Shown: piece by piece, positions 1-41,446 of the stretch
Position numbering within the stretch: the first letter of the stretch is position 1
Layout of the letters: every line of letters begins with the position of its first letter
IMG/VR virus record: IMGVR_UViG_3300045592_000084
Strand: one strand, 5' to 3'
DNA: 41,446 nt
From: a virus
Program-made: the position numbers and the translations under genes
The notes under the pieces: generated by a model
Databases searched by the model: none
What the model was told of the DNA's origin: nothing
What the model saw: only the letters and a program-made list of their open reading frames with translations

Positions 1-127
1 GACGACAGATTCAAAACATTGAGTTCCCGAAGCCGCCGTCCTCGCTGGCAGTCTTACGGCTGTGGCACGCATGGCACAGCGCCTGCCAGTTGTTCTGATC
101 CCACATAAGCTTCTGGTTCCCCCGATG
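1..127. repeat. Terminal direct repeat copy 1 (assembly overlap)
   Basis: 1..127 (gacgacagattcaaaac...ggttcccccgatg) is identical to 41320..41446. Confidence 0.95.
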
Positions 128-2598: not shown

Positions 2599-3612
2599 TC
2601 AAAGCCATCCTTCCTCAGCCACATTCAAAGCGTCCGCCTGATGAGATCTGGTGAGATCTGCCCCGCTCAGATTCTTCGGCATCAGCTCCATCAGCTGGCG
2701 CTCAGGAGAAAGACAGAACTGCCCGCTCGACTTTTCGTACCAAAGCTTCTGCTTCGCTACCGCACCGGTCTTCCGCTGCTTATCGAGGAGCAGTACCGTG
2801 TCAGGCGCCTGGTCCCACCCGGCGTTTTTTGTCTTCAGCTCAACCGCTTTCTTTTCCTTCGAAAAATTCCGGAAAACAATCACCACGTTATCGGCAAGAT
2901 TGCTGATGTCGGCAGACCCTGAGATGGAGTAGCGGTCAGGAAGCTTTTCTTCGTCATGATCAGCGTTCGCTTTTCTGAGATGCGCTACAAGGTGGACGTG
3001 GACACCAGTCTCAACCGCGATCCGCTTCAGCTGCTCGGTAATGTGGCGCTGAGTCTGAAAGAGCTGATCGCTCGAGTGCCCGCCCGTCAGCATCATGAGG
3101 TTATCAACGAAGACATGCCGGCAGTGTTTGACAGCAGCGGCATAAGCCACTGCGTCAAGGGCATACCCGGGATCGATCGCCCCGCGGTTGCGGTATACCC
3201 AAAGAAGCCGCTCACACCAGTCGAAGAACTTCTCCACCTTTCCGGACTCCCCGATGGAGAGACCGCGGCCGTAAGCCATACGAACCATCTGCATCACGGT
3301 GTCCTTCGGCGCCATCTCGAAGGAGAGAAGGCACACGGCGCGCTTCTTCATCATCATTGAAAGCGCAACCTGGGACATCAAAGCGCTCTTGCCGGCGCCG
3401 TTATTTCCCGCCCACACAGTGAGTTCACCAGGTCTCATCTGAAACCTCGGGATCACAGGACAACTAACCCCGCTGTTCCTAAGAGGATGATCCACCTCTT
3501 CCATAAGTTCAGCCTGCATCGTTGCGGCAAGGACGATATCTGGTGATGGGTCCTTCCCTGACCAAAAGCCTTTCACGTCTTCTGGTTTCAGAAGGAAATT
3601 ACCTGCGTTCAT
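2599..3612 (-). CDS. DnaB-like / RecA-fold replicative helicase (ATPase-domain type)
   Basis: Walker A GNNGAGKS and Walker B HVFVDNLMML, with LVAHLRK and a C-terminal DnaB_C-like layout. Start set at ATG 3610-3612, which is preceded by GGAGGGG. The ORF track extends to 3681. Confidence 0.65.
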   Translation of the reverse strand: MNAGNFLLKPEDVKGFWSGKDPSPDIVLAATMQAELMEEVDHPLRNSGVSCPVIPRFQMRPGELTVWAGNNGAGKSALMSQVALSMMMKKRAVCLLSFEMAPKDTVMQMVRMAYGRGLSIGESGKVEKFFDWCERLLWVYRNRGAIDPGYALDAVAYAAAVKHCRHVFVDNLMMLTGGHSSDQLFQTQRHITEQLKRIAVETGVHVHLVAHLRKANADHDEEKLPDRYSISGSADISNLADNVVIVFRNFSKEKKAVELKTKNAGWDQAPDTVLLLDKQRKTGAVAKQKLWYEKSSGQFCLSPERQLMELMPKNLSGADLTRSHQADALNVAEEGWL

Positions 3613-3964
3613 AAACTGCCCCTCCATAATTTCTGATGTATCTCTCTGCCTTGGTATCTCCATGAGCCGCAAAGACGACAATAAGAGGAAGTCCTGAAAA
3701 GATTCCTTCTCTGGCTTCCAGCATTCTCTTCATCCCCTCTTCACCGTCGTACATAACGTGTACCATGCGTCCTTTAATGAACCTCTGCCAATCAATGACA
3801 GAAAGACGGTCTTGAAGAAGGATGTCTACGACACCTTTTATTCCTACGGACTCGCCTTTCTCTACGGTTTGGAAATCTGGAGTCTCTGAGTGAAAGAAGA
3901 CAACGACAGAATCCATTGGTTCAGCATCCATTGCCTGACTGATCAGCATTTCAGATTTCCTCAA
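3599..3964 (-). CDS. Hypothetical replication-module protein (possible helicase loader by position)
   Basis: 121-aa ORF between the initiator and the helicase, overlapping both by a few nt. No motif recognised. Confidence 0.45.
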   Translation of the reverse strand: MRKSEMLISQAMDAEPMDSVVVFFHSETPDFQTVEKGESVGIKGVVDILLQDRLSVIDWQRFIKGRMVHVMYDGEEGMKRMLEAREGIFSGLPLIVVFAAHGDTKAERYIRNYGGAVYERR

Positions 3965-4661
3965 ACAGACGTTCTTCAGCAGTCAGATGCCTCACTTCCC
4001 TTCTTTGTGCTTCTTTCTCTCTCCTTACCCATGTCTGCCAGCTTTGCGTCCAGCCTTTATCTGACCTTCTGGTGGAGGAACCTCTGCCGTTCTCCCAGTA
4101 GAACCTGAAGTCAGTAAAGACTTTCTTAGGATCCAAATCAGGGCGTACGGCTTCGATGTATTCCTTCCAAGCATCCGGGATCTCGGCGAGCGAGAAGAGG
4201 TGTGTCTGTGCCTCCCGCTTCGCCGCAGGCGAGGGGGGAGGTAGGGGCTCTTCCCTGATTTGTTCATTGATATGTTCACTGATCTGTTTGTGTCCCAAAT
4301 TCGGTACTACTGTTTGTCCCGTTTTCGGTACTACTGCCGTACCGTTTTCGGTAGTACCGTTTTCGGTAGTACCGTTTTCGGTAGTACCGTTTTCGGTACG
4401 ACAGAGGGCATAATTAAGCTGGTACCGATTCGCGTTTCTCTCACTTTTTTGAGCTGAAACCACCCCGCTTTGGGAAAGAGCTTTCAGAGCTGAAAAAACT
4501 GTCTTGCGATTCAAGTGCGTAATCGCTGTTAGCTTTTCTACAGACGGGAAGCACCGTCCGGCATCGTCCGAAAACTTCGCCAAGGCAAGAATCACCAGGC
4601 GTTCAGACGAAGAGGTCACGGGCGCCTCCCAAGCAAAATCGGTCGCTTTGTAGCCGTGCAT
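3951..4661 (-). CDS. Replication initiator (lambda O-like role, N-terminal winged helix)
   Basis: 236 aa. The N-terminal segment ERLVILALAKFSDDAGRCFPSVEKLTAITHLNRKTVFSALKALSQSGVV is typical of phage O/DnaD-like initiators. Contains an in-frame iteron array and directly follows the Cro-like gene. Confidence 0.65.
   Translation of the reverse strand: MHGYKATDFAWEAPVTSSSERLVILALAKFSDDAGRCFPSVEKLTAITHLNRKTVFSALKALSQSGVVSAQKSERNANRYQLNYALCRTENGTTENGTTENGTTENGTAVVPKTGQTVVPNLGHKQISEHINEQIREEPLPPPSPAAKREAQTHLFSLAEIPDAWKEYIEAVRPDLDPKKVFTDFRFYWENGRGSSTRRSDKGWTQSWQTWVRREKEAQRREVRHLTAEERLFEEI
4300..4398. repeat. Iteron array, candidate origin of replication
   Basis: Four perfect tandem 15-mers GTACCGTTTTCGGTA (4339-4353, 4354-4368, 4369-4383, 4384-4398), each containing the inverted repeat TACCG-TTTT-CGGTA. 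They are preceded by two copies of TTCGGTACTACTG (4300-4312, 4324-4336). Confidence 0.6.
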
Positions 4662-8107: not shown

Positions 8108-8777
8108 ATCACTTAGCCACGGAGACGCAAACCCACTCCAGCGAACTGCGAAGTGGTTCTCAGACCGTTGCGGCTGTCTCACGGCATCCCGCGCGGCTGA
8201 CGCGCTGGCGATATCGGCGAAGACCGGGAAACCGCTCAAATCCAGGCAGGATCTGATTGATACACTGATCGCGGAACGGGCAACCGGAGTTGCGCAGAGT
8301 TCCGGGACGACCTGGGCGATGCAGTGGGGGATTGATCATGAAGCTGAGGCACGCGAGGCGTATGAAGCGGCTACAGGCGAGATGGTGGATCTGGTGGGCT
8401 TCATCCCGCACCCGGATATTCCTTGGTTTGGAGCGTCTCCGGATGGCTTGGTCGGCTCGGATGGGCTTGTAGAAATCAAGTGCCCGCAGACTGTAACCCA
8501 CCTTCGCCGCATAGCGGCTGGGGTCCCAGCGCCAGAGTATCTCCTGCAGATGGACGTGCAGTTAATCTGTACCGGCAGGAAATGGTGCGACTATGTTGAC
8601 TATGACCCGCGGCTTGAGGCAAAGAATCCGGAGCTCACGCTTTTTATCCGGAGATATGAACCCGCCCCCGAACATCTTGCGGGGACGCTTGAGGCTTGTC
8701 GGGTATTCCTCGCGGAGGTCGACAGCCAATATAGGAAGCTCATGAATCTTGGAGAGAGGAGAGAACAAAATGTGTGA
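8097..8777 (+). CDS. YqaJ-like (lambda Exo fold) recombination exonuclease
   Basis: PD-(D/E)xK core ASPDGLVGSDGLVEIKCP. Start at ATG 8097 after GGAGGAGAAGGAA. The ORF track starts at 8076. Confidence 0.8.
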   Translation: MQAESLSHGDANPLQRTAKWFSDRCGCLTASRAADALAISAKTGKPLKSRQDLIDTLIAERATGVAQSSGTTWAMQWGIDHEAEAREAYEAATGEMVDLVGFIPHPDIPWFGASPDGLVGSDGLVEIKCPQTVTHLRRIAAGVPAPEYLLQMDVQLICTGRKWCDYVDYDPRLEAKNPELTLFIRRYEPAPEHLAGTLEACRVFLAEVDSQYRKLMNLGERREQNV

Positions 8778-9493: not shown

Positions 9494-9863
9494 AGAAAAA
9501 ATCAATCACCCGGCGCACTACAACCAGCTGCCGCACGAAGTCATCGAGATCGTTGCTGATCGGGATTTCTGTTCTGGGAACGTTGTGAAGTACCTGATGC
9601 GCGCCCCATATAAGGGGAATGCAGTTGATGACCTGAAAAAGGCGCGCTGGTATCTGATATGGCTCCTGGAGCATAACTACCCGATAGGCTCGCGCGATCT
9701 TTACCATAAGGAATACAGAATGACTTGTGAAAACGCTAATGCGATCAGCGGTCCTGGAGCCAAAGAAATCTCAAAAGCAATCAAGCTTTTTGTGTCCGGA
9801 TATGGGGAGGAAGCTTTGGCCGCTATAGATAAAGCAATAGATGAACAGGAGAGCGAGAAATGA
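9486..9863 (+). CDS. DUF3310-family phage protein
   Basis: Begins MPEEKINHPAHYNQ, then VIEIV, GNVVKYLMRAPYKG and DLKKARWYL, the hallmark DUF3310 pattern. ATG 9486 overlaps the upstream stop. Confidence 0.7.
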   Translation: MPEEKINHPAHYNQLPHEVIEIVADRDFCSGNVVKYLMRAPYKGNAVDDLKKARWYLIWLLEHNYPIGSRDLYHKEYRMTCENANAISGPGAKEISKAIKLFVSGYGEEALAAIDKAIDEQESEK

Positions 9864-10081
9864 GGAAGCGTGGCAGAACAATCCCCCCGCTGGGGTTACT
9901 GATGGTGGATGTGAAAGAAGCCGCGGCCATGCTCTCGATTGGGGAAAGCACCGTGTGGAAAAAGGTGAAGGAAGATCCCTCGTTCCCTCAGCCCGTGCGC
10001 CTCAGCCCAAAGTGCACGAGGTTCAAGGTAGACGATATCAGGAAGTGGGTGAAATCCGTCGGTACGGGAGTCTCAGCGTGA
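9860..10081 (+). CDS. AlpA-family HTH, probable excisionase
   Basis: 73 aa. The segment VKEAAAMLSIGESTVWKKVKEDPSFPQPVRLSPKCTRFKVDDIRKW is typical of AlpA/Vis-type excisionases that partner P4-type integrases. ATGA overlap with the upstream gene. Confidence 0.7.
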   Translation: MRKRGRTIPPLGLLMVDVKEAAAMLSIGESTVWKKVKEDPSFPQPVRLSPKCTRFKVDDIRKWVKSVGTGVSA

Positions 10082-10157
10082 GTTTGAAAGAAGACAAAAT
10101 AAACTGTACAACCCCCCTCGATGCAACGATAATAAAGAGATAAAGGCACAAGAGAAA

Positions 10158-10997
10158 ATGGCACACATGAGTTTAAGGACACCTCTCCGATATCCTGGCG
10201 GGAAGCGAAAATTAGCAAACTTTGTTGAGGCACTAATTTCTCATAACTCCCTTCCCGGGTGCGATTATGCTGAACCATATGCCGGAGGGGCAGGCCTAGC
10301 TATTGAATTGCTTCGTCGCGGAGCCGTTGGGCAGCTTTGGTTAAACGACATTGACAAAGGCATTGCCTCGTTCTGGGGACTCGTCCTCAAACAACCTGAT
10401 TTGTTGTGCAAAATGATCGAAAAAACCGATGTAACTATAGGGGAGTGGAACAAACAAAAGGAACTTGCAAAAAGTGAAGACCCTGTTCTACGTGGCTTTG
10501 CAACATTTTTCCTGAATCGAACCAACCGATCTGGCATCATCAAGGGGGGCGTCATTGGAGGGAAGAGCCAGAGCGGAATCTGGAAGCTTGACTGCAGGTT
10601 CAACAAAGGTGCGCTCATTGATCGTATTCAAGAAATCTCCAAATTCAGTGACCGCATCCATTTCTATAACATGGATGCACTTGAGTTCTTGGTTTCTGCA
10701 GTTCCTCTGCAACTTAAAACTGTTTTGTTCAACCTTGATCCCCCTTACTATGTGAAGGGGGCCGGGCTCTATACCAACTTCTACAGCGATTCGGATCACT
10801 TAAGAGTATCCACTTTCATCAGAGGCGAGTCGCGCCCCTGGATCGTCTCGTACGATAATCATGAGTTCATCAGAAAAATCTATTCTGGCTGCAAGTTTAT
10901 TGAATACGAACTCACTTACACAGCTCAGCGCAAAAGTGTAGGGAAAGAAATAATGTTCTTTGGCAATCTTAGAGAAATCCCTCAAACTGTGAATTAG
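10158..10997 (+). CDS. D12-class (Dam-like) N6-adenine DNA methyltransferase
   Basis: 279 aa. Motifs RYPGGK, EPYAGGAG (AdoMet binding) and NLDPPYY (catalytic DPPY). No adjacent classical restriction endonuclease. Confidence 0.85.
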   Translation: MAHMSLRTPLRYPGGKRKLANFVEALISHNSLPGCDYAEPYAGGAGLAIELLRRGAVGQLWLNDIDKGIASFWGLVLKQPDLLCKMIEKTDVTIGEWNKQKELAKSEDPVLRGFATFFLNRTNRSGIIKGGVIGGKSQSGIWKLDCRFNKGALIDRIQEISKFSDRIHFYNMDALEFLVSAVPLQLKTVLFNLDPPYYVKGAGLYTNFYSDSDHLRVSTFIRGESRPWIVSYDNHEFIRKIYSGCKFIEYELTYTAQRKSVGKEIMFFGNLREIPQTVN

Positions 10998-12661
10998 TTA
11001 CCAATCCTCCTTTTAACCACCGACAAAACTTTTAAGTATTTGTCGGCGAACCCTTTCACTTCTTCAGGGTGAGTGTCAACCCAGGCGGAAATAATATCAG
11101 CTCTATCTTTGGCGCTGATATGCGAAAACCATTTCTTATAAGCATCTCTGCGCTTCTTATCTTCCTTGCCGACTTTGCTTAAGCTTTCTTGCAAACCATT
11201 GATTTCTTTTTGCAAAAAATCCCATGAAATTTTCTTTTTTAGTAAAGTCTCGTGTTCCTTCCCCTTTGGATTGTTAATAGCCTTCATTAGGAAATATTCA
11301 ATTTCTTGTTCCGGGCTGCGAAGCCCACCTGCTTCCGTAGGCAATTTGATGCAATTATCTAATTTTTCAAAACGTTCTGTTTTTTGATCTCCATCTAGCA
11401 CACAGGCAGAATATCTGCTGAAATGTGTAGCTGATTTGTTATGAAACAGCTTTATTAATTCTCCGCATCCCATCTTCAAGGGAACTTTTTTCACGGTAAC
11501 TCTTAAGACCTTTTCGTCGACATGGCCAAACCTTACAATGTTTTTTAAGAAAGCCCCCGCTTCGGAATCCTCAAAATACACAAATAACTCCTTTTTGCGT
11601 TTTTTAGCAAATGCGGTCTTGCTCAGCAGCAATTGATCCAGCATTTCTTGTAGGGTTAAATTTTTTACGCATGGCGTCTTGGTATCCATCAGATAAACAA
11701 TGCCATCAATCGATTGCTTTTTCTGCGAAACGCCGTAAATTTGCTTAAGAAAGACAATCGAATGAGTCGTTACTATAACCTGCAAACTCAACTTCTTCGC
11801 CTCTCTAAGTAACGCCTTCGCTAACGATACTTGCGCTCTAGGATGCAACCCTGCTTCAATTTCATCAACCACAAGAATCCCGCCAGGGTAATCTTGCTTG
11901 AGTTCTCGCTTTAGCCTCCTAAAAGATGCCAGCGCTGTAGCGATAGAAGCCAACGCACCTTGACCAAGAGATATTGTTGACGCGTCGTACTGGTATGTCG
12001 GGTGTTGTGTTCGAAGAACACGTCCTCCAGAAAGGCTCACATCCAGTTCTCTGGCTATCCCATCAGTTACCTCCCCTGGAATAATTTCGTTATGAAACTC
12101 CCGGATAAAATCTGCATCATCCGGGGCCAAAATTGAGCTTGTCACTTCTACTTTGGAGCTTTCTCCGATCGGCCACATTCTCGCTGCACTGACAAAAATC
12201 GTAGGCATTGGGATCTTGCCATCCGGCTTAACGCCCTTCTTGGCCGCGTAATCCTCATTACCTTTAGTACGAGGAACAACTCGATAGCGAGGCTCCTTCG
12301 TCATAGGTGTTTTCGTTTGTCCGATATTGCATACCTTCAGAACCTCTCCCCCATCGACCTCATACGTTAGGCGAATGTAGCCGCTATTTTTCCTCCCAGA
12401 GGTGATATCAGCAGGAGCCAATCGGAACTGCTCTTCAAACTTAGAAATAAATTCCGTCCCAAAATAATTTTTTCTTTTATCAATTTCACGGGCCCGCAAA
12501 CCGCTCGCATTAGCAATAAACCCCAAAATTGAAGATTTCCCTATCCCGTTAAGGCCGGCAATCACAGTCAATCTCGGGAAAATGGGGATTTCCAAGCGGG
12601 AAAGTTTACGCCACGAGTTAGGGTCGAAAGCAACCTTTTTGAGAATAAAACGAGGCTTCAT
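10994..12661 (-). CDS. OLD-family-like ABC-type ATPase with C-terminal Toprim-like domain
   Basis: 555 aa. Walker A GLNGIGKS (K42), signature-like SLGQG (231-235), Walker B ILVVDEIE (D266/E267), TTHS (298-301), then FVYFEDSEAG (E364) and CVLDGDQ (D423, D425). Starts 39 nt downstream of int on the same strand. Confidence 0.75.
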   Translation of the reverse strand: MKPRFILKKVAFDPNSWRKLSRLEIPIFPRLTVIAGLNGIGKSSILGFIANASGLRAREIDKRKNYFGTEFISKFEEQFRLAPADITSGRKNSGYIRLTYEVDGGEVLKVCNIGQTKTPMTKEPRYRVVPRTKGNEDYAAKKGVKPDGKIPMPTIFVSAARMWPIGESSKVEVTSSILAPDDADFIREFHNEIIPGEVTDGIARELDVSLSGGRVLRTQHPTYQYDASTISLGQGALASIATALASFRRLKRELKQDYPGGILVVDEIEAGLHPRAQVSLAKALLREAKKLSLQVIVTTHSIVFLKQIYGVSQKKQSIDGIVYLMDTKTPCVKNLTLQEMLDQLLLSKTAFAKKRKKELFVYFEDSEAGAFLKNIVRFGHVDEKVLRVTVKKVPLKMGCGELIKLFHNKSATHFSRYSACVLDGDQKTERFEKLDNCIKLPTEAGGLRSPEQEIEYFLMKAINNPKGKEHETLLKKKISWDFLQKEINGLQESLSKVGKEDKKRRDAYKKWFSHISAKDRADIISAWVDTHPEEVKGFADKYLKVLSVVKRRIGN

Positions 12662-12700: not shown

Positions 12701-14059
12701 TTACATCTTACATTCAGAGCAACAAAACTCTCCCCACGCTTCATAAACATCACGCATATCACCCAGAGCCTGCTCCCGATCGTACGCGCACTGGTAGGAC
12801 TCGTTGCGGTGATCCAAGCAGCTTTCTCTCAGATCGCGCGAGAACGGCTTGTGGGAGTATCCCTTGGCATCCTTGGCCCAGGTATTGAAAGTTGCCCGCG
12901 CGAGCCCGTGGAGGGTCACTATACGGGGTTTGCCGGTCTTCGCATGGAACTGATCGGGGTCTACCCAGCCAATCCCGTCAATTCTTTTCTGTTTGTCGTG
13001 CATGCGCTTAATCAGCGCCCGGGCAGAATCACGGGAAAAAGGAGAATTTCTCCCCTTGTTCACATTGGGGAAAATATAGGAATCTGGAGATCCCCCTACC
13101 CGTGGGGCTGATTCCAGCAGCTGAACGGCTTCTGGGCAAAGCGGTGTTTTGCGGTCAAAGGGAATCTTTTCGCTCTTCACCTTCATGCGGGCACGAGGAA
13201 TAACGTGCAGCCACCTCCCATCATCATCCTGCTGGATTTCCCCCCATGTTGCTTCACGCGCTGTTGTGTTGCGCGCTGAAGTAAGGATCGCGAATGCAAG
13301 ACAGCGGGCCGTCTGACTAACCGGGACAAGCTGCATAAGTGCCTTAAAGAAAGCCGGCATACGTTTCGGCGGCAGTGCCGGCTCGTGCCCGCCTTCCGGT
13401 CGATTTAGTGGCAGCAAATCCCCTAAACGCCCGTCCACCACCTGGCACGGGTTAACCATCGGCGGGATCATCTCCGAGCGTATTGCCCAATCAATCGCTC
13501 TTTTAGCGTCGCTAAGGATCCTTTCGGGCGTGTCAATCATGGTCCCCCACTTTTCCCCCAGGGCATCACAGAACATCTGAGGTTTCAGGTCTACAACCGG
13601 GCAGTCTCTGATTTCTTTAGGGATGTGATTCCTGAAAAAGCCATCCCAAACCAGATCGCGGGATTTTTCAGCGTTTTTCCACCTCCCCCTCTTTGTGTTG
13701 AACTCAATCCACTTCCAGATAAGTTTTTCAAAGGTTAGTGCGTCCTTCTCTTTTTGAGGTGCCGGGGAGGGGCGTAGCGCGTCTCTGGTCGCTTTCTCCT
13801 GCTCAGATGGGTCAATCCCTTCCGCTATCAGTTTCCTCCATCTGAGCCCCTTCTCGAAGGCCTCAGCGAGTGACATTTCGGGATACTTCCCGAGAGTAAA
13901 GACCCGCTTCAAACCACGATCCCGAAGCAGGAAATAACGGGCATATGTCCCGTCCTTGAGCTTCCTGACTCCAACATAAAGCCCGGGGACAATCCCGCAT
14001 GAAGCGTCAGCCGTCAGGGCTTTCAAACGCTTGTCAGTCATCCTGTTTGCCACGCGCAT
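12701..14059 (-). CDS. int: P4-type tyrosine integrase
   Basis: N-terminal arm-binding-type segment (MTDKRLKAL...GLYVGVRK...YFLLRD). C-terminal catalytic segments (TSARNTTARE, LHGLARATFNTW, CLDHRNESYQCAYDRE). Start chosen at ATG 14057-14059 with GGAGA 9 nt upstream. The ORF track extends to TTG 14068. Confidence 0.9.
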   Translation of the reverse strand: MRVANRMTDKRLKALTADASCGIVPGLYVGVRKLKDGTYARYFLLRDRGLKRVFTLGKYPEMSLAEAFEKGLRWRKLIAEGIDPSEQEKATRDALRPSPAPQKEKDALTFEKLIWKWIEFNTKRGRWKNAEKSRDLVWDGFFRNHIPKEIRDCPVVDLKPQMFCDALGEKWGTMIDTPERILSDAKRAIDWAIRSEMIPPMVNPCQVVDGRLGDLLPLNRPEGGHEPALPPKRMPAFFKALMQLVPVSQTARCLAFAILTSARNTTAREATWGEIQQDDDGRWLHVIPRARMKVKSEKIPFDRKTPLCPEAVQLLESAPRVGGSPDSYIFPNVNKGRNSPFSRDSARALIKRMHDKQKRIDGIGWVDPDQFHAKTGKPRIVTLHGLARATFNTWAKDAKGYSHKPFSRDLRESCLDHRNESYQCAYDREQALGDMRDVYEAWGEFCCSECKM

Positions 14060-14283
14060 AACGCTCAATCTCCGTAATCAAATGTTTTTAAATAAAAAAT
14101 ACAGTTATTACCACAAAAAATTCCGTTATGTTTGGGGAGAAATTGAAGTTTCCCCGCTCATTTGTGGTAATGATTGTGGCATAGATTCTTAGATAATGAC
14201 ACGCCTTACGGAGAGGATTAGAGACAAAGACAACACGCGTATTGTGTCTTAAGCTCTTGTTTTTATTGAGTTGTCGTAGACGA

Positions 14284-14320
14284 ATACAAAGAAAAAGGAG
14301 GCAACTTTCGTTGTCTCCTT
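14284..14320 (-). terminator. Intrinsic terminator immediately downstream of the tRNA-like core
   Basis: 11-bp stem (14295-14305 with 14310-14320, one G-U pair), 4-nt loop. On the minus RNA it is followed by UUUCUUUG. Confidence 0.65.
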
Positions 14321-14360
14321 TCCTGGAATTGGTCGGGGTGGTGGGACTCGTATACCACTA

Positions 14361-14388
14361 TTAACAAAGGGTTTTAATCTGATACTAT
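14361..14388 (+). promoter_or_regulatory. Candidate promoter for the adhesin gene
   Basis: -35 TTAACA (14361-14366), 16-nt spacer, -10 TACTAT (14383-14388), about 130 nt upstream of ATG 14521. Confidence 0.3.
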
Positions 14389-14520
14389 TGCCAGTTTGTG
14401 GCTTAGTTTGTGGTAATAAATCCCTATGCTCTCCAACAATTAGGGGTAAACCCCTGAATTGAGGGAGGGGTAGGAGGGGTAATCTCGTATCCATACATTC
14501 TTTACTCTTAGGAGAGAAAC

Positions 14521-17211
14521 ATGCGTACACAGAATAAAGGTACAAGGTCCTCACGCTTCAGGATAACCACTATAGCTATCGCTGTTGCTTCATCTTTTGC
14601 CATGACTCCGGCTTGGGCTGCTGATACCGCAACGGGGAGCGGTAGCGGTGTCGCTTATGGCACTGGAAGCGACGCGCCTAAGGCTGAAAACGTTGCTATT
14701 GGTCCCAACGCCAAAACAGACAGCACCCACAGTGTGAATACCGGCGAAGCGGGTATCGCTATCGGCGCCAACGCCAAGACCATCACCGAAGTCGGCAGAA
14801 AAGGCGCAGCTGTCGTATTCATGAATCCCGACTTGCCTACTGGGAACTTTGGCGCGGGCGGTATCGCGATCGGTAAAAATTCCATTGGCTACAACGGCTC
14901 AACCGTTCTTGGTCAGCACGATTACACCGGTCAGATCGGCGACGTGAATGTCAATAAGCAGGAAGACGCTTCCAACTCCTATGAAAACCTTCAGTACGGG
15001 TTCGGAGCGACGAGTGTAGGCTATAACTCTTATACCGCTGGTCAGTACGCCACTTCGATCGGTGCCTATAACGTCAATTCCGCCAATTACTATCCGGGCG
15101 GAACAAACAAGGTCAATGGCAATAACACTGTTTTCCAGGGGCTCGGCGCCACGATCATTGGCTCTTTTAACAGCAATGAATCCCGAAGCTCTCAGTCCGC
15201 GTTTTCCGGGATGGCAAACAGCCTTATCGGCATTGCTAACAGAACTCAGAACTCTAATGGCTCTTTGATTTTTGGCGCTGGCAACGAAATTACAAATTCC
15301 TATGCCTCCATTTCTGGACTGCCAAGTTCAACCCCATCTTCAGCAGAAGACTTGCCATCTTCAGCAGAAGACTTGGCCAATACAATACGCGAGTCAGTCA
15401 AAGACTCTGATGGTGGCGGTGCTACCCTCGCAATTGGCGGCGGCAACACTGCCGATTACACCCAAGCCTCACAGCTGATCGGCGTTAACAATACGCTCAA
15501 AGGCACGTCCAGTTCCATAAGCCAATACAACGCGCTGAATGGCTACAAGAACACCGCAACCAACGTTAAGCAGACTTATATCACTGGCTTAGAAAACACC
15601 GTAGATAACAGCCTTCAGGTGAAGGTTTTGGGCGACAACAACACTGGAACCAGCATTAAGAACACCTCCCTGATTGGCACAGGAAATACCGTATCCAGCA
15701 GTCAGAGTGACATTGTGATAGGCGATTATCACACTCTTTCTGGCGGAGGAAATAATGTAATTATTGGCTCTATGGAGACACAGGACCAGCCACAGGCCCA
15801 GCAAGTAACGGAAACTTATAGCGTCACTGCAAATGGTGTTTCCCAGGACATCTCAACAGAGAAAGTTCCGGTCAAAACTCACAAATCTGACATCAGCGAT
15901 ACGGTAATGATTGGCCATAATGCAGACGTCACCGTCAATGGCGGCGTTGCGTTAGGGGCTAATTCTGTTGCCTCTACAGATAAGGGCGTTGCAGGCTACG
16001 ACCTTTCGACCGGAGCGGCATCTACAGAAACTTCAGTTGCTTGGAAATCAACAGCAGCAGCCGTCTCAGTCGGTGATGTTGATCATGAGGTAACGCGGCA
16101 GATTACGGGGGTGGCGGCAGGCTTAAATGATACCGACGCGGTCAACGTTGCACAGCTCAAGAAGGCTGCAGCTGCCGCGACTACGACTGTTGCTACGACT
16201 GATAGCAACCTCACCGTCGCGGAGACTCCCTCAGGCTCCCATAACTACCAGGTTGGACTGAATAAGAAACTCACCGGCATGGAAAGCGCGGAGTTTAGGG
16301 CTGACGCCGCAAAGACGACTATCTCTGCTGGTGGCGTGACCATCGCCAAGGACAGCACAACGGTAAGCCTTAAATCCAATGGACTAGATAATGGCGGGCA
16401 AACCATCAAGAATGTGGCTGCTGGCAAAACCGACACTGATGCGGTTAACCTCTTGCAGCTGAAGAATTCCGTTACGAAGGTGGAATCTGCCAACCAGGAC
16501 TATATCGATATCACAACACGGAAGGAAAATGCCTCAACCAATACCGGGGCAACCATCTACTCCGTGGGACTGTCTGTTGATGCCGAAACCGCGATCACGA
16601 ATGCCAATCATTATCTGACGGCTGATGGGATCAATGCCCAGAACCAAAAGATAACGAATGTTGCCCCCGGAACGATTTCCGCGACGTCTACTGATGCTGT
16701 GAATGGCAGCCAGTTGTATCAGACAAATCAGGCGGTTCAGCAGAATTCTGATGACATTTCCAAACTGTATAACCGCAGCGCGGAACTTAACCGCAAGATC
16801 CATCGTGCCGGCGCGCATGCGGCTGCTCTTGCCGCACTGCATCCGCTGGACTTCGATGAAAATCATCGGGTGTCCGCCTCTCTCGGCCTTGGCCAATACC
16901 ACAGCAGCGGGGCGGCCGCTCTTGGTATCTTCGTCCGCCCGACGGAGAACTTTATGGTCAGCCTGGGAGGATCAATCGCCTCTGGCAGTGATGTGATGGG
17001 GAATCTCGGCGTGCATTATCGCTTTGGCGGCGACAGCGTGCGGGTGAACAAAACGGAACTTACTCAGCAGGTAAGCACTCTCACCGCTGAAAACCGGGAT
17101 CTGTCAGCAAAATTGGCTTCTTCCAACTCAAAGCTGGAAGCCGCTACGTCAAAGATTGACTCTCTGATGGAAAGGATCCACGCTATCGAAGCCAAACTTA
17201 ATATGAAGTAA
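14521..17211 (+). CDS. Trimeric autotransporter adhesin (YadA/Hia type)
   Basis: 896 aa. Signal peptide ending AMTPAWA. Many head repeats (AIGPNAKT, AIGANAKT, AIGKNSIG, ALGANSVAS). Three neck/stalk motifs (TRQITGVAAGLNDTDAVNVAQL, IKNVAAGKTDTDAVNLLQL, ITNVAPG..TDAVNGSQL). YadA-type anchor (AGAHAAALAALHPL ... GNLGVHYRF). Confidence 0.9.
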   Translation: MRTQNKGTRSSRFRITTIAIAVASSFAMTPAWAADTATGSGSGVAYGTGSDAPKAENVAIGPNAKTDSTHSVNTGEAGIAIGANAKTITEVGRKGAAVVFMNPDLPTGNFGAGGIAIGKNSIGYNGSTVLGQHDYTGQIGDVNVNKQEDASNSYENLQYGFGATSVGYNSYTAGQYATSIGAYNVNSANYYPGGTNKVNGNNTVFQGLGATIIGSFNSNESRSSQSAFSGMANSLIGIANRTQNSNGSLIFGAGNEITNSYASISGLPSSTPSSAEDLPSSAEDLANTIRESVKDSDGGGATLAIGGGNTADYTQASQLIGVNNTLKGTSSSISQYNALNGYKNTATNVKQTYITGLENTVDNSLQVKVLGDNNTGTSIKNTSLIGTGNTVSSSQSDIVIGDYHTLSGGGNNVIIGSMETQDQPQAQQVTETYSVTANGVSQDISTEKVPVKTHKSDISDTVMIGHNADVTVNGGVALGANSVASTDKGVAGYDLSTGAASTETSVAWKSTAAAVSVGDVDHEVTRQITGVAAGLNDTDAVNVAQLKKAAAAATTTVATTDSNLTVAETPSGSHNYQVGLNKKLTGMESAEFRADAAKTTISAGGVTIAKDSTTVSLKSNGLDNGGQTIKNVAAGKTDTDAVNLLQLKNSVTKVESANQDYIDITTRKENASTNTGATIYSVGLSVDAETAITNANHYLTADGINAQNQKITNVAPGTISATSTDAVNGSQLYQTNQAVQQNSDDISKLYNRSAELNRKIHRAGAHAAALAALHPLDFDENHRVSASLGLGQYHSSGAAALGIFVRPTENFMVSLGGSIASGSDVMGNLGVHYRFGGDSVRVNKTELTQQVSTLTAENRDLSAKLASSNSKLEAATSKIDSLMERIHAIEAKLNMK
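15334..15375. repeat. Perfect 21-bp tandem duplication inside the adhesin gene
   Basis: ccatcttcagcagaagacttg occurs twice (15334-15354, 15355-15375). It is in frame and encodes PSSAEDL twice. Confidence 0.9.
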
Positions 17212-17426: not shown

Positions 17427-19148
17427 TTGACTACAATTTTTAGTCAACTGAAGTTAGCAGCGGCTGACGGTAAAAAATATACGATGTTACTGCACAAAAG
17501 CAAATTCTGCGCATTATCCAATTCGTTCACTCTCCCACCCACCCTTTTTGTTTATCTGATTGCAGTTACTGGGCTTTTGGTCTTCTCCCTGCTTCTTCCT
17601 GCAGCCATGGGATTCGCCCACGGCAAACCATCAATCGTTGAGGCATGGGACTGGAAAAATATCCTGTTTGTGGTGCTGATTTTCTTTGCCCTCAGTCAGT
17701 ACAGAATCACGCGCTGGTTCGTAGCTATTCCTCTTATTCTGATTTTCGGGCTCTATATGCCGGCAGGTTTGCTTTACGGGAAACCCAGCCTCATCGTTTC
17801 AATAGCCGTTTTGCAGACCAATCCCGCAGAAGCAGGTGAATTTCTCACGAACATCCCTTGGCAGGTTTTCGCGGGCGTCATTGGGCTTTTGGCCAGCGGT
17901 TTTATAGGTGTCTTCTACAGCTCAAAGATCAGAGTTTCAGCAAAAATCATTTTGGGTATCGGCGTGGCGTCTTTCATCATCGGGGAAATGATTTCTTTCG
18001 GAAGCGCCGTAAATTCGAAAGCAATCCAGACGGTTTACTTTTTCCGTCTCCTCAGACCCAGTGTAATTGATGGCTATGCCGCCCTAAAGGAAGAAGAAAG
18101 GCTAGGTACTCCCTCGTGGCAAATCGCTTCCGTCAAGCCTCGATATAAAACCTATGTCGTCATTATTGGTGAAAGCCAACGGCGCGATTACGCATCTGTT
18201 TACGGTTATCCACTAAATACGACTCCGTATTTAAACAGCGCCAACGGCATCTTCTTCTCAAACTTTATTACCGCTGGTGGCAATACTGTTATCTCGCTGC
18301 CAAGGATGCTTTCTTACAACATTCCCGGCTCTGAGCAATACAGCAAAGATGACAACATTGTTACTCTCGCCAATGCCGCTGGCTTTGACACTTGGTGGAT
18401 TTCCAATCAGGGGCGTGGCGGGCCATTCGACAACCCTATTGCTCAGATCGGCATTCGAAGCCACCACACAATCTGGCTGAAGGGCAATTGGGCAGACGAA
18501 AATGTAGATGACGATAATCTGCTACCCAAAATTCAGGAGGTGTTGAAGGTCAAACCGTCAGAAGATAAGCCCAGATTGATCTTTGTCCACCTGATGGGGT
18601 CGCACCCAACTTTCTGTAAACGTCTGTCCGGGCGTCCTGTTGCGTTTAATGTCGGAGACAGTGCGATGAATTGCTATCTGACTACTTACCGCACCTCCGA
18701 CGCCTTCATTAAAAGGACTGTTGATCTTCTGAAAACTGAAGCCGGTAATTCATGGTCACTCTTATATTTTTCTGATCACGGGCTTTCCATGCAAGAGAAA
18801 CTGGGAACCCCTTTGGGCAAAGAGCTCATGCACGGGACCGCTTTTCGTCAGAACTATGAAGTACCTTTTCTGAATATTTCTTCTGACAGCAGAGCTCACG
18901 ATGTCAATCCGGCGTATAGAACAGGATTCCGTTTACTGGAGGGAATGGCCGAATGGATGGGAATCAGTGCCAGCAATATCAATCTTAAGAATAGTCCTGA
19001 TTTCTGGAGCAAAACGAACGACGAAGACATCCATGTCGCAGGCAAACAGCTATACCATCAGCTGGCAAATGACCCCGCTCTGCACTTCAGTTCCCAATTA
19101 TCTCAGAACCACCAACAAAATTTGCCATATCCCACGCCACGCATGTAG
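17427..19148 (+). CDS. Phosphoethanolamine transferase (sulfatase superfamily, EptA/CptA/OpgE-like)
   Basis: 573 aa from TTG 17427 (GGGAGG 7 nt upstream), or 554 aa from ATG 17484. Several N-terminal TM helices, then motifs YVVIIGESQRRDYASVYGY, FVHLMGSHP and YFSDHG. Confidence 0.8.
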   Translation: MTTIFSQLKLAAADGKKYTMLLHKSKFCALSNSFTLPPTLFVYLIAVTGLLVFSLLLPAAMGFAHGKPSIVEAWDWKNILFVVLIFFALSQYRITRWFVAIPLILIFGLYMPAGLLYGKPSLIVSIAVLQTNPAEAGEFLTNIPWQVFAGVIGLLASGFIGVFYSSKIRVSAKIILGIGVASFIIGEMISFGSAVNSKAIQTVYFFRLLRPSVIDGYAALKEEERLGTPSWQIASVKPRYKTYVVIIGESQRRDYASVYGYPLNTTPYLNSANGIFFSNFITAGGNTVISLPRMLSYNIPGSEQYSKDDNIVTLANAAGFDTWWISNQGRGGPFDNPIAQIGIRSHHTIWLKGNWADENVDDDNLLPKIQEVLKVKPSEDKPRLIFVHLMGSHPTFCKRLSGRPVAFNVGDSAMNCYLTTYRTSDAFIKRTVDLLKTEAGNSWSLLYFSDHGLSMQEKLGTPLGKELMHGTAFRQNYEVPFLNISSDSRAHDVNPAYRTGFRLLEGMAEWMGISASNINLKNSPDFWSKTNDEDIHVAGKQLYHQLANDPALHFSSQLSQNHQQNLPYPTPRM

Positions 19149-41319: not shown

Positions 41320-41446
41320 GACGACAGATTCAAAACATTGAGTTCCCGAAGCCGCCGTCCTCGCTGGCAGTCTTACGGCTGTGGCACGCATGGCACAGCG
41401 CCTGCCAGTTGTTCTGATCCCACATAAGCTTCTGGTTCCCCCGATG
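41320..41446. repeat. Terminal direct repeat copy 2 (assembly overlap)
   Basis: Identical to 1..127. Confidence 0.95.

What the first reader, a model, noticed from the sequence alone, without database searches (positions are those of the whole stretch)
10158..12661. Convergent, stop-codon-interlocked Dam-like methyltransferase and OLD-like ATPase-Toprim gene pair in an AT-rich island that splits xis from int
Seen in the sequence: (a) A 279-aa plus-strand ORF carries RYPGGK, EPYAGGAG and DPPY motifs, marking a D12-class N6-adenine methyltransferase. (b) A 555-aa minus-strand ORF carries Walker A GLNGIGKS (K42), signature-like SLGQG, Walker B ILVVDEIE, TTHS, and then a Toprim-like E364 ... D423-G-D425. 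(c) The two stop codons interlock (TAG 10995-10997 against TAA on the other strand at 10994-10996), with no terminator between them. (d) Spot counts on 60-nt lines give roughly 33-52 percent G+C inside the island, against 53-63 percent in sampled structural-gene lines. (e) The island sits between the AlpA/Xis-like gene and int, and the ATPase gene follows int by 39 nt on the same strand. Established knowledge: OLD-family ATPase-Toprim nucleases (P2 Old, GajA) and ABC-ATPase/Toprim pairs (PARIS, AbiL) are anti-phage effectors, and int-proximal prophage slots are defence hotspots. Inference: this is a lysogen-expressed exclusion or defence module. The tight pairing with a methyltransferase suggests a modification-based self/non-self logic that I do not recognise as a named system.
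Basis: partly seen in the sequence, partly recalled or inferred. Interest (0 to 1): 0.78.

Follow-up and report, generated by a model that had tools for sequence, protein, structure and literature searches.

The report
Methylase-coupled ATPase-Toprim phage defence pair
A gut-bacterium phage carries a DNA-marking enzyme from a validated anti-phage system (PD-lambda-5), but its usual partner is replaced by an ATP-driven OLD-like nuclease; this pairing is conserved across bacteria and archaea and I found no name for it in the libraries and papers available here.

Summary
In detail: both ORFs, all motifs, the 4-nt stop overlap, the low G+C (44.1% vs 52.0%) and the xis/int position are confirmed. 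The window is a complete circular ~41.3-kb temperate phage of Mesosutterella multiformis.

The MTase is a full-length PD-Lambda-5_B member (PADLOC E = 1e-110). The 555-aa partner is not PD-Lambda-5_A (ParB/HEPN). It is an ABC ATPase fused to a Toprim plus helical domain. K42, D266/E267, H300, E364, D423 and D425 are invariant in 33 homologs. Its C-terminal model best matches OLD nuclease C-terminal regions, and its only specific profile hits are HEC-04 and the retron I-B ATPase-Toprim.

The pairing is not chance: 72 of 77 informative species-level loci carry this MTase subfamily next to the ATPase, in all gene orientations, so the convergent interlock is a minority layout. Seen from the MTase side, partners are PD-Lambda-5_A (49), ATPase-Toprim (18), both (4) or a NurA-like/HerA module (2).

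Best reading (inferred): a restriction-modification-like defence in which methylation marks self and the ATPase-Toprim attacks unmarked DNA. This is a new effector variant of PD-lambda-5. Neither function nor target has been tested.

The parts
10158..10997 (+). D12-class N6-adenine DNA methyltransferase (279 aa), a member of the PD-Lambda-5_B subfamily. Identical to MCI1638214.1 of Mesosutterella multiformis.
   Evidence: PADLOC PD-Lambda-5_B E = 1.1e-110, 367.6 bits, residues 6-276 against profile positions 4-277 of 291. Pfam MethyltransfD12 E = 5e-15. Catalytic and SAM-binding motifs invariant. Exact-sequence look-up.
10994..12661 (-). ABC ATPase-Toprim fusion protein (555 aa), the presumed effector. 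Identical to MCI1638215.1.
11627..12661 (-). ABC (SMC/Rad50/OLD-type) ATPase domain, residues ~1-345. Walker A K42, signature-like S231-L-G233-Q, Walker B D266-E267, H-loop H300.
   Evidence: Pfam AAA_21 1.5e-17 and AAA_15 8.8e-17. Motif residues invariant. Foldseek hits to SMC/Rad50 heads, Ts OLD 6p74, GajA and PtuA at E = 1e-8 to 1e-11.
11342..11590 (-). Toprim-type core, residues ~358-440: beta1 (358-363), E364/D365, alpha1, beta2 (389-394), beta3 (418-422), D423-G-D425, beta4 (437-439), then invariant L440-P441.
   Evidence: AF2 model of the domain alone, pLDDT 93.5. E364, D365, D423 and D425 invariant. Top 5 PDB fold hits are OLD C-terminal regions, prob 0.82-0.98. PADLOC retron I-B ATPase-Toprim profile aligns across residues 247-444.
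11000..11314 (-). C-terminal helical bundle, residues ~450-554, with invariant P450 and K509. It corresponds in position to the helical region that follows the Toprim core in OLD nucleases.
   Evidence: The PADLOC HEC-04 profile aligns to residues 259-542, and to the isolated C-terminal fragment at E = 4e-6.
10994..10997 (.). 4-nt overlap of the two convergent 3' ends (TAG of the MTase, TAA of the ATPase).
   Evidence: Not conserved in geometry among relatives.
10105..10133 (+). Weak sigma-70-like promoter match (TGTACA-17-GATAAT), 25 nt upstream of the MTase start. Its significance is doubtful.
   Evidence: 4 sites found against 5.7 expected by chance in the region.
9860..10081 (+). Context: AlpA/Xis-like HTH gene flanking the module.
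   Evidence: Phage_AlpA E = 5.7e-6, HTH_17 E = 9.9e-6.
12701..14068 (-). Context: tyrosine integrase (Arm-DNA-bind_3), 39 nt upstream of the ATPase gene on the same strand.

Best explanation
This is a two-gene, restriction-modification-like anti-phage module carried by a temperate Mesosutterella phage. It is a PD-lambda-5-type system whose ParB/HEPN effector has been replaced by an ABC ATPase-Toprim nuclease.

Shown here:
- The MTase belongs to one subfamily (PD-Lambda-5_B) that is almost never an orphan. It sits next to one of at least three alternative effector modules.
- The ATPase-Toprim family has invariant ATP-binding/hydrolysis residues and an invariant E...DxD metal site.
- The two genes are co-inherited across phyla.

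Inferred:
- The MTase methylates adenines in the DNA of the lysogen and the phage, marking it as self.
- The ATPase-Toprim protein, probably as an oligomer and possibly in complex with the MTase acting as a DNA-recognition subunit (Type III-like), uses ATP binding or hydrolysis to engage incoming unmethylated DNA and cuts nucleic acid at the Toprim site.
- The outcome is direct restriction, or death or dormancy of the infected cell if the target is broader.
- Without the MTase the effector should be toxic.
For: MTase membership: PADLOC PD-Lambda-5_B 1.1e-110, full length.

Effector anatomy: invariant K42, D266/E267, H300, E364, D423 and D425. AF2 models with pLDDT 89 and 93.5. OLD C-terminal regions are the only credible fold matches. 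Profile links to HEC-04 and to the retron I-B ATPase-Toprim.

Coupling: the MTase is adjacent in 7 of 7 metagenome/genome contexts in three orientations. It is adjacent or nearby in 6 of 6 phage records that carry the ATPase. It is within 0.7 kb in 65 of 77 informative species-level loci and within 3.6 kb in 72 of 77. Identities of the MTase and the ATPase to the window pair fall in parallel: 85/73, 75/60, 59/46, 54/35, 47/32, 45/34, 34/25 %.

Hub behaviour: of the 80 best MTase relatives, 49 pair with PD-Lambda-5_A, 18 with ATPase-Toprim, 4 with both and 2 with a NurA-like/HerA module; only 2 have neither with room to tell. MTase clusters with different partners are interleaved (identity A-A 0.466, P-P 0.465, A-P 0.435). 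The window has no PD-Lambda-5_A or NurA-like ORF.

Literature: PD-lambda-5 (ParB/HEPN + methyltransferase) is a validated broad defence. It was described as a compacted 'RM+Abi' system and had to be cloned in a delta-mrr host, which implies active DNA methylation (PMC9519451). HEC-04 defence needs its Walker A lysine and its Toprim E/D/D residues, and it is toxic when induced (bioRxiv 10.1101/2024.01.29.577857). AbiR is toxic without its methylase (PMC13064643). One distant standalone-type relative (L085) sits next to a C5 cytosine methylase instead.
Against: No experiment shows defence, methylation sensitivity or MTase-dependent toxicity for this pair.

Toprim/OLD nucleases characterised so far are non-specific DNases, or in PARIS AriB a tRNase. 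Toprim is not a known restriction-enzyme fold.

The Toprim assignment is weak numerically (Foldseek E ~ 0.015-0.07, TM ~ 0.34-0.41) and there is no Pfam Toprim hit.

Under a strict 2.5-kb cut-off, 4 of 80 MTase-centred loci carry both effectors. A looser 2.6-kb count over all loci gives 15 of 157 unique MTases. In those loci the ATPase-Toprim may be an accessory rather than the primary restriction component.

Distant standalone relatives (L047, L074, L100, L102) and HEC-04 itself work or exist without a dedicated MTase.
Confidence: 0.55

Rival explanations
1. Abortive-infection guard or backup effector. The ATPase-Toprim does not read methylation. It is held inactive (possibly by binding the MTase) and is triggered by a phage cue such as an anti-restriction or DNA-mimic protein. 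It then cleaves tRNA or bulk DNA and kills the cell, as PrrC does with EcoprrI, PARIS with Ocr, and the RloAB genes inside hsd loci. The MTase acts as sensor, decoy or antitoxin.
For: Loci with ATPase-Toprim plus a complete PD-lambda-5 exist in several phyla. HEC-04 is embedded in methylase-containing Hma systems, and OLD-ABC modules are described as backup effectors of BREX. Vassallo et al. called PD-lambda-5 'RM+Abi'. PARIS AriB shows that a Toprim can be a tRNase (abstracts).
Against: In most loci, including this phage, the MTase is the only partner. A bare MTase confers no restriction for a guard to back up. The strict co-inheritance and parallel divergence fit a protective modification at least as well. 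No anti-restriction trigger is known.
Confidence: 0.25
2. Selfish addiction or stabilisation module. The nuclease-MTase pair mainly acts like a toxin-antitoxin pair, killing cells that lose the phage or island after segregation. Any phage defence is secondary.
For: The module sits on mobile elements (next to a phage int, in islands with integrases or resolvases, near an IS) and has low G+C. Orphan effectors are absent among close relatives.
Against: This is not exclusive of the main explanation, since classical R-M systems do both. Its relatives PD-lambda-5 and HEC-04 were selected or validated for phage defence.
Confidence: 0.1
3. Phage-serving host-takeover nuclease. During lytic growth the phage methylates its own DNA, and the ATPase-Toprim degrades unmethylated host DNA to supply nucleotides.
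For: The MTase lies on the same strand as the early-left genes (ERF, YqaJ, DUF3310, AlpA) and could be expressed early.
Against: Many family members lie in loci with no phage genes in view, for example Sutterella wadsworthensis L001-L004, Paraburkholderia L013 and Methanococcoides L090. The module sits at the int-proximal slot where relatives carry it as cargo.
Confidence: 0.07
4. Two unrelated genes that are neighbours by chance: an orphan anti-restriction MTase and a solitary OLD-like defence gene.
For: Orphan phage Dam-like MTases and class 1 OLD genes both exist. There is no operon here, because the genes are convergent.
Against: 72 of 77 informative loci across Proteobacteria, Firmicutes, Actinobacteria, Bacteroidetes, Spirochaetes and Archaea keep the pair. 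Identities fall in parallel. Of 75 MTase loci where both flanks can be judged, only 2 lack a recognised effector partner.
Confidence: 0.03

Closest known systems
PD-lambda-5 (Vassallo et al. 2022, Nat Microbiol; ECOR7 RCQ13837.1 + RCQ13838.1)
   Same: Same methyltransferase subfamily (PADLOC PD-Lambda-5_B, 367.6 bits, full length). Also a compact two-gene MTase + effector module, often on prophages. The MTases of the two variants are interleaved in clustering, and the window's MTase is ~50% identical to PD-Lambda-5_A-linked MTases.
   Different: The A component (ParB/HEPN, ~460 aa) is absent from the whole phage genome. An unrelated 555-aa ABC ATPase-Toprim protein takes its place. A detection rule that requires both the A and B components would, I expect, not call this pair; I did not run PADLOC's or DefenseFinder's system-level calling.
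HEC-04 / IbfA (Payne et al. bioRxiv 2024; PMC12111858)
   Same: Single polypeptide of ABC ATPase + C-terminal Toprim with an E...DxD site. The E-to-DxD spacing is similar (E319 to D375/D377 in HEC-04; E364 to D423/D425 here). HEC-04 is the only PADLOC profile that hits the isolated C-terminal domain (E = 4e-6). HEC-04 is found inside methylase-containing (Hma) systems.
   Different: The profile score is weak (57.8 bits for the whole protein). There is no BLAST-level similarity: tblastn against plasmids found no IncI1 ibfA. HEC-04 defends as a single gene, whereas this family is tied to a dedicated D12 MTase.
OLD-family nucleases (P2 Old / Ts OLD class 1, GajA class 2, retron Eco8 class 3, PARIS class 4)
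   Same: ABC ATPase followed by Toprim and a helical region. The full-length model hits Ts OLD 6p74 and GajA. The C-terminal model's top 5 PDB hits are Xcc and Bp OLD C-terminal regions. The retron I-B ATPase-Toprim profile aligns through the Toprim.
   Different: No Pfam Toprim_OLD or DUF4435 match in any of the 33 members. TM-scores are only 0.34-0.41. The genomic context (a D12 MTase) is none of the four described classes; the 2023 OLD review does not mention methyltransferases at all.
Classical Type II / Type III restriction-modification systems
   Same: Adjacent MTase and nuclease genes whose orientation varies freely while adjacency is kept. Carried on mobile elements. Orphan nucleases absent among close relatives.
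   Different: [quoted passage not shown] To my knowledge that fold has not been described for restriction endonucleases (known folds: PD-(D/E)XK, HNH, GIY-YIG, PLD, half-pipe). Sequence specificity and methylation sensitivity are unknown.
PrrC-EcoprrI, RloAB and lactococcal AbiR (ATPase-nuclease effectors tied to methylase/R-M loci)
   Same: An ABC-ATPase-regulated nuclease genetically bound to a DNA-modification module. AbiR is toxic without its methylase.
   Different: Those effectors accompany complete R-M systems or have other domains (HEPN anticodon nuclease; ParB + Snf2). Here the MTase is the only partner.

Membership tests
PD-lambda-5 | B component: D12-class MTase of the PD-Lambda-5_B profile family | tested here: met
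   PADLOC PDLC04018 E = 1.1e-110, 367.6 bits, residues 6-276 against profile positions 4-277 of 291.
PD-lambda-5 | A component: ParB/HEPN protein (PD-Lambda-5_A) adjacent to the MTase | tested here: not met
   The neighbour is an ABC ATPase-Toprim. Its C-terminal fragment hits only HEC-04. An HMM built from 7 PD-Lambda-5_A proteins finds nothing in any window ORF at E <= 10. Positive controls L022, L029 and L065 score E = 4e-90 to 5e-150.
PD-lambda-5 | Both genes together confer anti-phage defence | not testable with these tools
   Needs cloning and phage challenge.
OLD-family nucleases | N-terminal ABC ATPase with Walker A, signature, Walker B and H-loop | tested here: met
   Pfam AAA_21 and AAA_15. 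Invariant K42, S231/G233, D266/E267 and H300. Fold hits to SMC/Rad50/OLD/GajA.
OLD-family nucleases | C-terminal Toprim domain with a conserved Glu after beta1 and DxD after beta3, followed by a helical region | tested here: inconclusive
   Topology and invariant E364 and D423xD425 fit. The top 5 PDB matches are OLD C-terminal regions with prob 0.82-0.98, but E = 0.015-0.07 and TM = 0.34-0.41. No Pfam Toprim, Toprim_OLD or DUF4435 hit in the 33 members at E <= 1.
OLD-family nucleases | Class-defining context (class 1 solitary; class 2 UvrD-like GajB; class 3 retron RT/ncRNA; class 4 PARIS) | tested here: not met
   The neighbour is a D12 MTase in 72 of 77 loci. No helicase, RT or separate AriB lies in the module.
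HEC-04 | Match to the HEC-04 profile over the full length | tested here: inconclusive
   E = 1.8e-16, 57.8 bits, residues 259-542 against profile positions 231-485 of 494. C-terminal fragment E = 4e-6. Standalone relatives score 71-84 bits. I could not see PADLOC's own thresholds.
HEC-04 | Functions as a single gene | tested here: not met
   This family is obligately linked to an MTase. That is a genomic inference, not a functional test.
PARIS (AriA/AriB) | AriA ABC ATPase plus a separate or fused DUF4435 Toprim (AriB) | tested here: not met
   AriA profiles align only to the ATPase core, residues ~226-305. AriAB matches only residues 17-55. No DUF4435 hit.
Dam (orphan GATC adenine methylase, TIGR00571) | Score above the NCBIfam dam cut-off | tested here: not met
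   44 bits against a cut-off of 114.85. It is D12-class but not Dam proper, and its target motif is unknown.
Restriction-modification system (generic) | Nuclease activity blocked by the cognate methylation; nuclease toxic without the MTase | not testable with these tools
   Only indirect support: adjacency regardless of orientation, and no orphan effector among close relatives.

The most novel reading that the evidence does not exclude
The ATPase-Toprim protein is a genuine ATP-dependent, methylation-sensitive restriction enzyme. That would make Toprim a restriction-nuclease fold not described before, as far as I know, and add a fifth, methylase-linked context class to the OLD-like nucleases. 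More broadly, the PD-Lambda-5_B methyltransferase would be a universal self-marking hub into which unrelated effectors (ParB/HEPN, ABC-ATPase-Toprim, NurA-like/HerA) plug. Such a modular 'methylation-gated immunity' family would span bacteria and archaea, with the MTase possibly serving as the shared DNA-recognition subunit.
Probability: 0.35. Interest if true: 0.8.

Novelty: new variant of a known kind. Interest (0 to 1): 0.6.

Why it matters
PD-lambda-5 is experimentally validated, but I found no mechanistic study of it. OLD-like and HEC-04-like nucleases lack a known way of telling self from non-self. A natural system that couples an OLD-like ATPase-Toprim to a dedicated methylase makes both questions testable with simple genetics: methylated versus unmethylated targets, and MTase-dependent toxicity.

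It also points to a likely blind spot in defence annotation. A detection rule that requires both PD-Lambda-5 components would, I expect, miss this variant. It made up about a quarter of the MTase-centred loci sampled (22 of 80). The effector family has 711 representatives of 50%-identity clusters at E <= 1e-30. It occurs in human-gut Sutterellaceae, Acinetobacter, Streptococcus, Lactiplantibacillus, Neisseria and Fusobacterium, and in archaea.

If the MTase is a hub for interchangeable effectors, it is a compact model for how immune modules are rewired.

Tried and rejected
- **Near-identical DNA:** megablast of the region against E. coli genomes and phages found nothing.
- **First locus scan:** a single-protein scan of genome contigs found nothing. 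The scan with an alignment worked.
- **Pfam Toprim, Toprim_OLD and DUF4435:** no hit in any of the 33 family members at E <= 1. A PDB sequence-profile search matched only the ATPase part.
- **Apparent natural loss of the MTase beside an intact ATPase (L009):** this is a 10-N scaffold gap and was rejected.
- **Direct comparison with IbfA:** plasmid R64 (AP005147) is not in the collection, and tblastn against plasmids found no IncI1 ibfA. The link to HEC-04 therefore rests on the PADLOC profile alone.
- **Krishnan et al. [quoted passage not shown] It is not held and could not be read.
- **Literature searches for the pairing:** no description found. PA1939/PA2735 of P. aeruginosa turned out to be an unlinked OLD gene and a Type I methylase.
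- **BFVD fold search of the C-terminal domain:** only weak RloB-like, Toprim and primase hits.
- **Promoter and terminator scans:** at or below chance level.
Full report
**1. The observation**

The 279-aa ORF at 10158..10997 (+) and the 555-aa ORF at 10994..12661 (-) are listed. Their stop codons overlap by 4 nt: TAG at 10995-10997 and TTA, the reverse complement of TAA, at 10994-10996.

The MTase matches Pfam MethyltransfD12 (E = 5e-15). The second protein matches AAA_21, AAA_15 and AAA_23 above Pfam's cut-offs, and SMC_N just below its cut-off. The island is 44.1% G+C against 52.0% for the genome, which places it in the lowest 0.9% of 2.5-kb windows. It lies between an AlpA/Xis-like gene (9860..10081) and a tyrosine integrase (12701..14068). 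The ATPase gene starts 39 nt after the int stop.

The window itself is a complete circular temperate-phage genome. Bases 1-127 repeat exactly at 41320-41446. TerL, portal, capsid and baseplate genes lie on the minus strand, and a CI-like repressor, ERF, YqaJ, DnaB-like and DnaD-like genes are also present. Both proteins are on record with identical sequence as MCI1638215.1 and MCI1638214.1 of Mesosutterella multiformis, each seen on more than 110 contigs.

**2. The two proteins**

The MTase hits the PADLOC model PD-Lambda-5_B over its full length (E = 1.1e-110, 367.6 bits). It is not Dam proper: the TIGR00571 model scores 44 bits against a cut-off of 114.85. Its RYPGGK, EPxAGGAG and DPPY motifs are invariant in the subfamily.

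PD-lambda-5 was found by functional selection in E. coli ECOR7. [quoted passage not shown]

The 555-aa partner here is not the ParB/HEPN A component. It has only generic ABC-ATPase matches (AriA, mad3, PtuA, GajA, all at about 1e-17 or weaker and all in the ATPase core) plus two profiles that extend beyond the ATPase. These are HEC-04 (residues 259-542, E = 1.8e-16) and the retron type I-B ATPase-Toprim (residues 247-444, E = 2e-16). The isolated C-terminal 216 residues hit only HEC-04 (E = 4e-6). An HMM built from seven genuine PD-Lambda-5_A proteins finds nothing in any ORF of the phage.

**3. The Toprim claim**

In an alignment of 33 homologs (25-75% identity) the invariant residues are K42 (Walker A), S231/G233 (signature), D266/E267 (Walker B), H300 (H-loop), E364/D365, D423/D425, L440/P441, P450 and K509.

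No Pfam Toprim, Toprim_OLD or DUF4435 model hits any member even at E <= 1. A profile search of PDB sequences matched only the ATPase.

The AlphaFold models are confident, with pLDDT 89.1 for the full length and 93.5 for the C-terminal domain. The C-terminal domain has the Toprim order beta1-[E364]-alpha1-beta2-alpha-beta3-[D423xD425]-beta4, followed by a helical bundle.

Foldseek with the full-length model finds SMC/Rad50 heads, the Thermus OLD nuclease 6p74, GajA and PtuA. With the C-terminal domain alone, the top five PDB hits are all C-terminal regions of class 2 OLD nucleases (Xcc 6njw/6njx/6njv and Bp 6nk8). They have prob 0.82-0.98 and 219-232 aligned columns, but E = 0.015-0.07 and TM = 0.34-0.41. 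Everything below them has prob at or below 0.3. The viral library gave only weak RloB-like, Toprim and primase hits.

[quoted passage not shown] Its K62A and E319A/D375A/D377A mutants lose defence, and it is toxic when induced (bioRxiv 10.1101/2024.01.29.577857).

I conclude that the protein is an OLD-like/HEC-04-like ABC ATPase-Toprim. The architecture, motifs and best fold matches all agree, but it is a distinct family rather than a demonstrable member of either.

**4. Is the pairing real?**

Yes, strongly. Seven homolog contexts at 73% down to 25% identity all have a D12 MTase adjacent:
- Convergent: L001, L005, L008, L018.
- Co-directional: Acinetobacter L011 and L. plantarum L015.
- Divergent: Paraburkholderia L013.

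Identity of the MTase to the window's falls in step with identity of the ATPase: 85/73, 75/60, 59/46, 54/35, 47/32, 45/34 and 34/25 %. All six phage records that carry the ATPase also carry the MTase nearby.

In 80 loci from species-representative genomes, an HMM of the partner MTases finds the MTase within 0.7 kb in 65 loci. Of these, 51 are ATPase->MTase, 13 are MTase->ATPase and 1 is convergent. The MTase lies 1.3-3.6 kb away in 7 more loci. Three loci end at a contig edge and 5 lack the MTase.

The five exceptions are shorter, more distant proteins. Four are solitary, and the best PADLOC hit of three of them is HEC-04. One sits beside a C5 cytosine methylase.

The exhaustive profile search gives 711 representatives of 50%-identity clusters at E <= 1e-30. 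All of the best 150 score E < 1e-110, nearly all over their full length. The convergent 'interlock' is therefore a minority layout. Even among convergent relatives the 3' ends range from an 8-nt gap to a 47-nt overlap.

**5. The unexpected part: the MTase is a hub**

In the loci where the MTase is 1.3-2 kb away, the intervening gene is a genuine PD-Lambda-5_A (L029 E = 5e-150, L065 E = 8e-97, L072 E = 1e-15). Three-gene loci of ATPase-Toprim + PD-lambda-5 therefore exist.

Starting from the MTase, the 80 best relatives pair as follows:

| Partner | Loci |
|---|---|
| PD-Lambda-5_A only | 49 |
| ATPase-Toprim only | 18 |
| Both | 4 |
| ~465-aa NurA-like protein + HerA-like ATPase | 2 |
| Neither, with room to tell | 2 |
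| Contig edge | 5 |

The MTases form one family. Mean identity is 0.466 within the ATPase-linked set, 0.465 within the ParB/HEPN-linked set and 0.435 between the sets, and the clusters are interleaved. The window's MTase is 50% identical to ParB/HEPN-linked MTases, about the same as to many ATPase-linked ones. This pattern implies repeated exchange, gain or loss of effectors on one MTase backbone.

**6. Mechanism**

Shown: an intact D12 MTase and an ABC ATPase-Toprim with invariant catalytic residues are co-inherited as a unit across phyla. The MTase is almost never an orphan.

From established knowledge:
- D12 MTases make N6-methyladenine.
- OLD and HEC-04 Toprim sites are metal-dependent nuclease sites that need the ATPase in vivo.
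- PD-lambda-5 defends broadly and methylates DNA, since it needs a delta-mrr host.
- Methylase-dependent restraint of toxic effectors has a precedent in AbiR.

Inferred (confidence 0.55): methylation marks self, and the ATPase-Toprim attacks unmarked incoming DNA. The MTase may act as the recognition subunit, which would explain how unrelated effectors can share it.

The main rival (0.25) is a PrrC/PARIS-style guard in which the effector is triggered by a phage factor rather than by unmethylated DNA. The three-gene loci and the embedding of HEC-04 and OLD-ABC modules in Hma and BREX systems favour that view. The predominance of loci with only the MTase argues against it. An addiction role, a phage host-takeover role and chance adjacency are less likely; chance adjacency is effectively excluded.

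**7. Comparison and novelty**

It works like an R-M or PD-lambda-5 system. It passes the B-component test for PD-lambda-5 and fails the A-component test, so it is a variant and not a member.

It resembles OLD nucleases in architecture, but its context is none of classes 1-4, and the 2023 OLD review never mentions methyltransferases. Public names for the family are all generic: 'AAA family ATPase', 'ATP-binding protein', 'ATP-dependent nuclease' and 'Prophage P2a protein 4 AAA ATPase'. NCBIfam (June 2026), Pfam and PADLOC-DB 2.0 have no specific model for it. Five literature searches found no description of the pair.

One caveat remains. Krishnan et al. [quoted passage not shown] REBASE and DefenseFinder could not be queried.

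Verdict: a real, widespread, apparently unnamed effector variant of a known MTase-coupled defence system. Interest 0.6.

Noticed in passing
window 1-127 and 41320-41446: An exact 127-nt terminal repeat, which is the overlap left by assembly of a circle. The window is therefore a complete circular ~41,319-bp temperate phage genome. It has no tRNA genes.
   Followed up: partly
window 14521-17211 (+) and 17427-19148 (+): Two cargo genes lie next to int and the probable attP gap (14069-14520). One is a YadA-like trimeric autotransporter adhesin of 896 aa (YadA_stalk 2e-30, YadA_anchor 2.5e-11). The other is a sulfatase-family protein of 573 aa (6.7e-48). They are likely lysogenic-conversion genes of a gut Sutterellaceae phage.
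   Followed up: partly
window 15334-15375: A perfect 21-nt tandem duplication (CCATCTTCAGCAGAAGACTTG, two copies) inside the adhesin gene. It adds an in-frame 7-residue repeat (SSAEDLP).
   Followed up: no
window 4291-4413: Iterons: the 15-nt unit GTACCGTTTTCGGTA repeated about 4 times (4339-4413), plus two related 22-nt copies (4291-4336). They lie inside the DnaD/HTH_36 initiator-like ORF 3951-4661 (-), next to a DnaB-like helicase gene (2599-3681). This is probably the phage replication origin.
   Followed up: no
L029 4986-9060; L065 4962-9553; L061, L067, L072, L082: Three-gene loci in Pandoraea, Kushneria, Chitinophaga, Algoriphagus, a Leptospiria MAG and a Cytophagaceae MAG. The ATPase-Toprim gene is followed by a genuine PD-Lambda-5_A (ParB/HEPN) gene and then the MTase.
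   Followed up: yes
L021 4366-7825 (Vibrio phage PQ189353); L028 6779-11168; L123; L170: A third effector set for the same MTase subfamily: a ~465-aa protein (no PADLOC hit for the L028 copy; one marginal hit, PDC-S58 at E = 0.0014, for the L021 copy) plus a HerA-like or P-loop ATPase. I labelled the 465-aa protein NurA-like by context only; that label was not tested.
   Followed up: partly
L085 4058-4918 (-) and 4995-6563 (+): A distant, shorter relative of the ATPase-Toprim (523 aa) sits divergently beside a C5 cytosine DNA methylase (Pfam DNA_methylase 1e-41) instead of a D12 MTase.
   Followed up: partly
L020 (Citrobacter phage phiNP OR565852.1), record 43923-44756: The homolog of the MTase (50.9% identity, 99% coverage) is not annotated in the GenBank record, although the adjacent 'AAA family ATPase' (42059-43846) is. 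In this phage the module lies downstream of xis and int.
   Followed up: partly
L009 about 8275-8284: A run of 10 N (a scaffold gap) splits the called MTase gene and mimics a truncated MTase beside an intact ATPase. It is an assembly artefact, not a natural loss.
   Followed up: yes
L005/L006/L007 5502-5792; L018 4540-4788: Related prophages have a small ORF (82-96 aa, no Pfam hit) between int and the ATPase gene. The window has no such ORF (39-nt gap). Its role is unknown.
   Followed up: no
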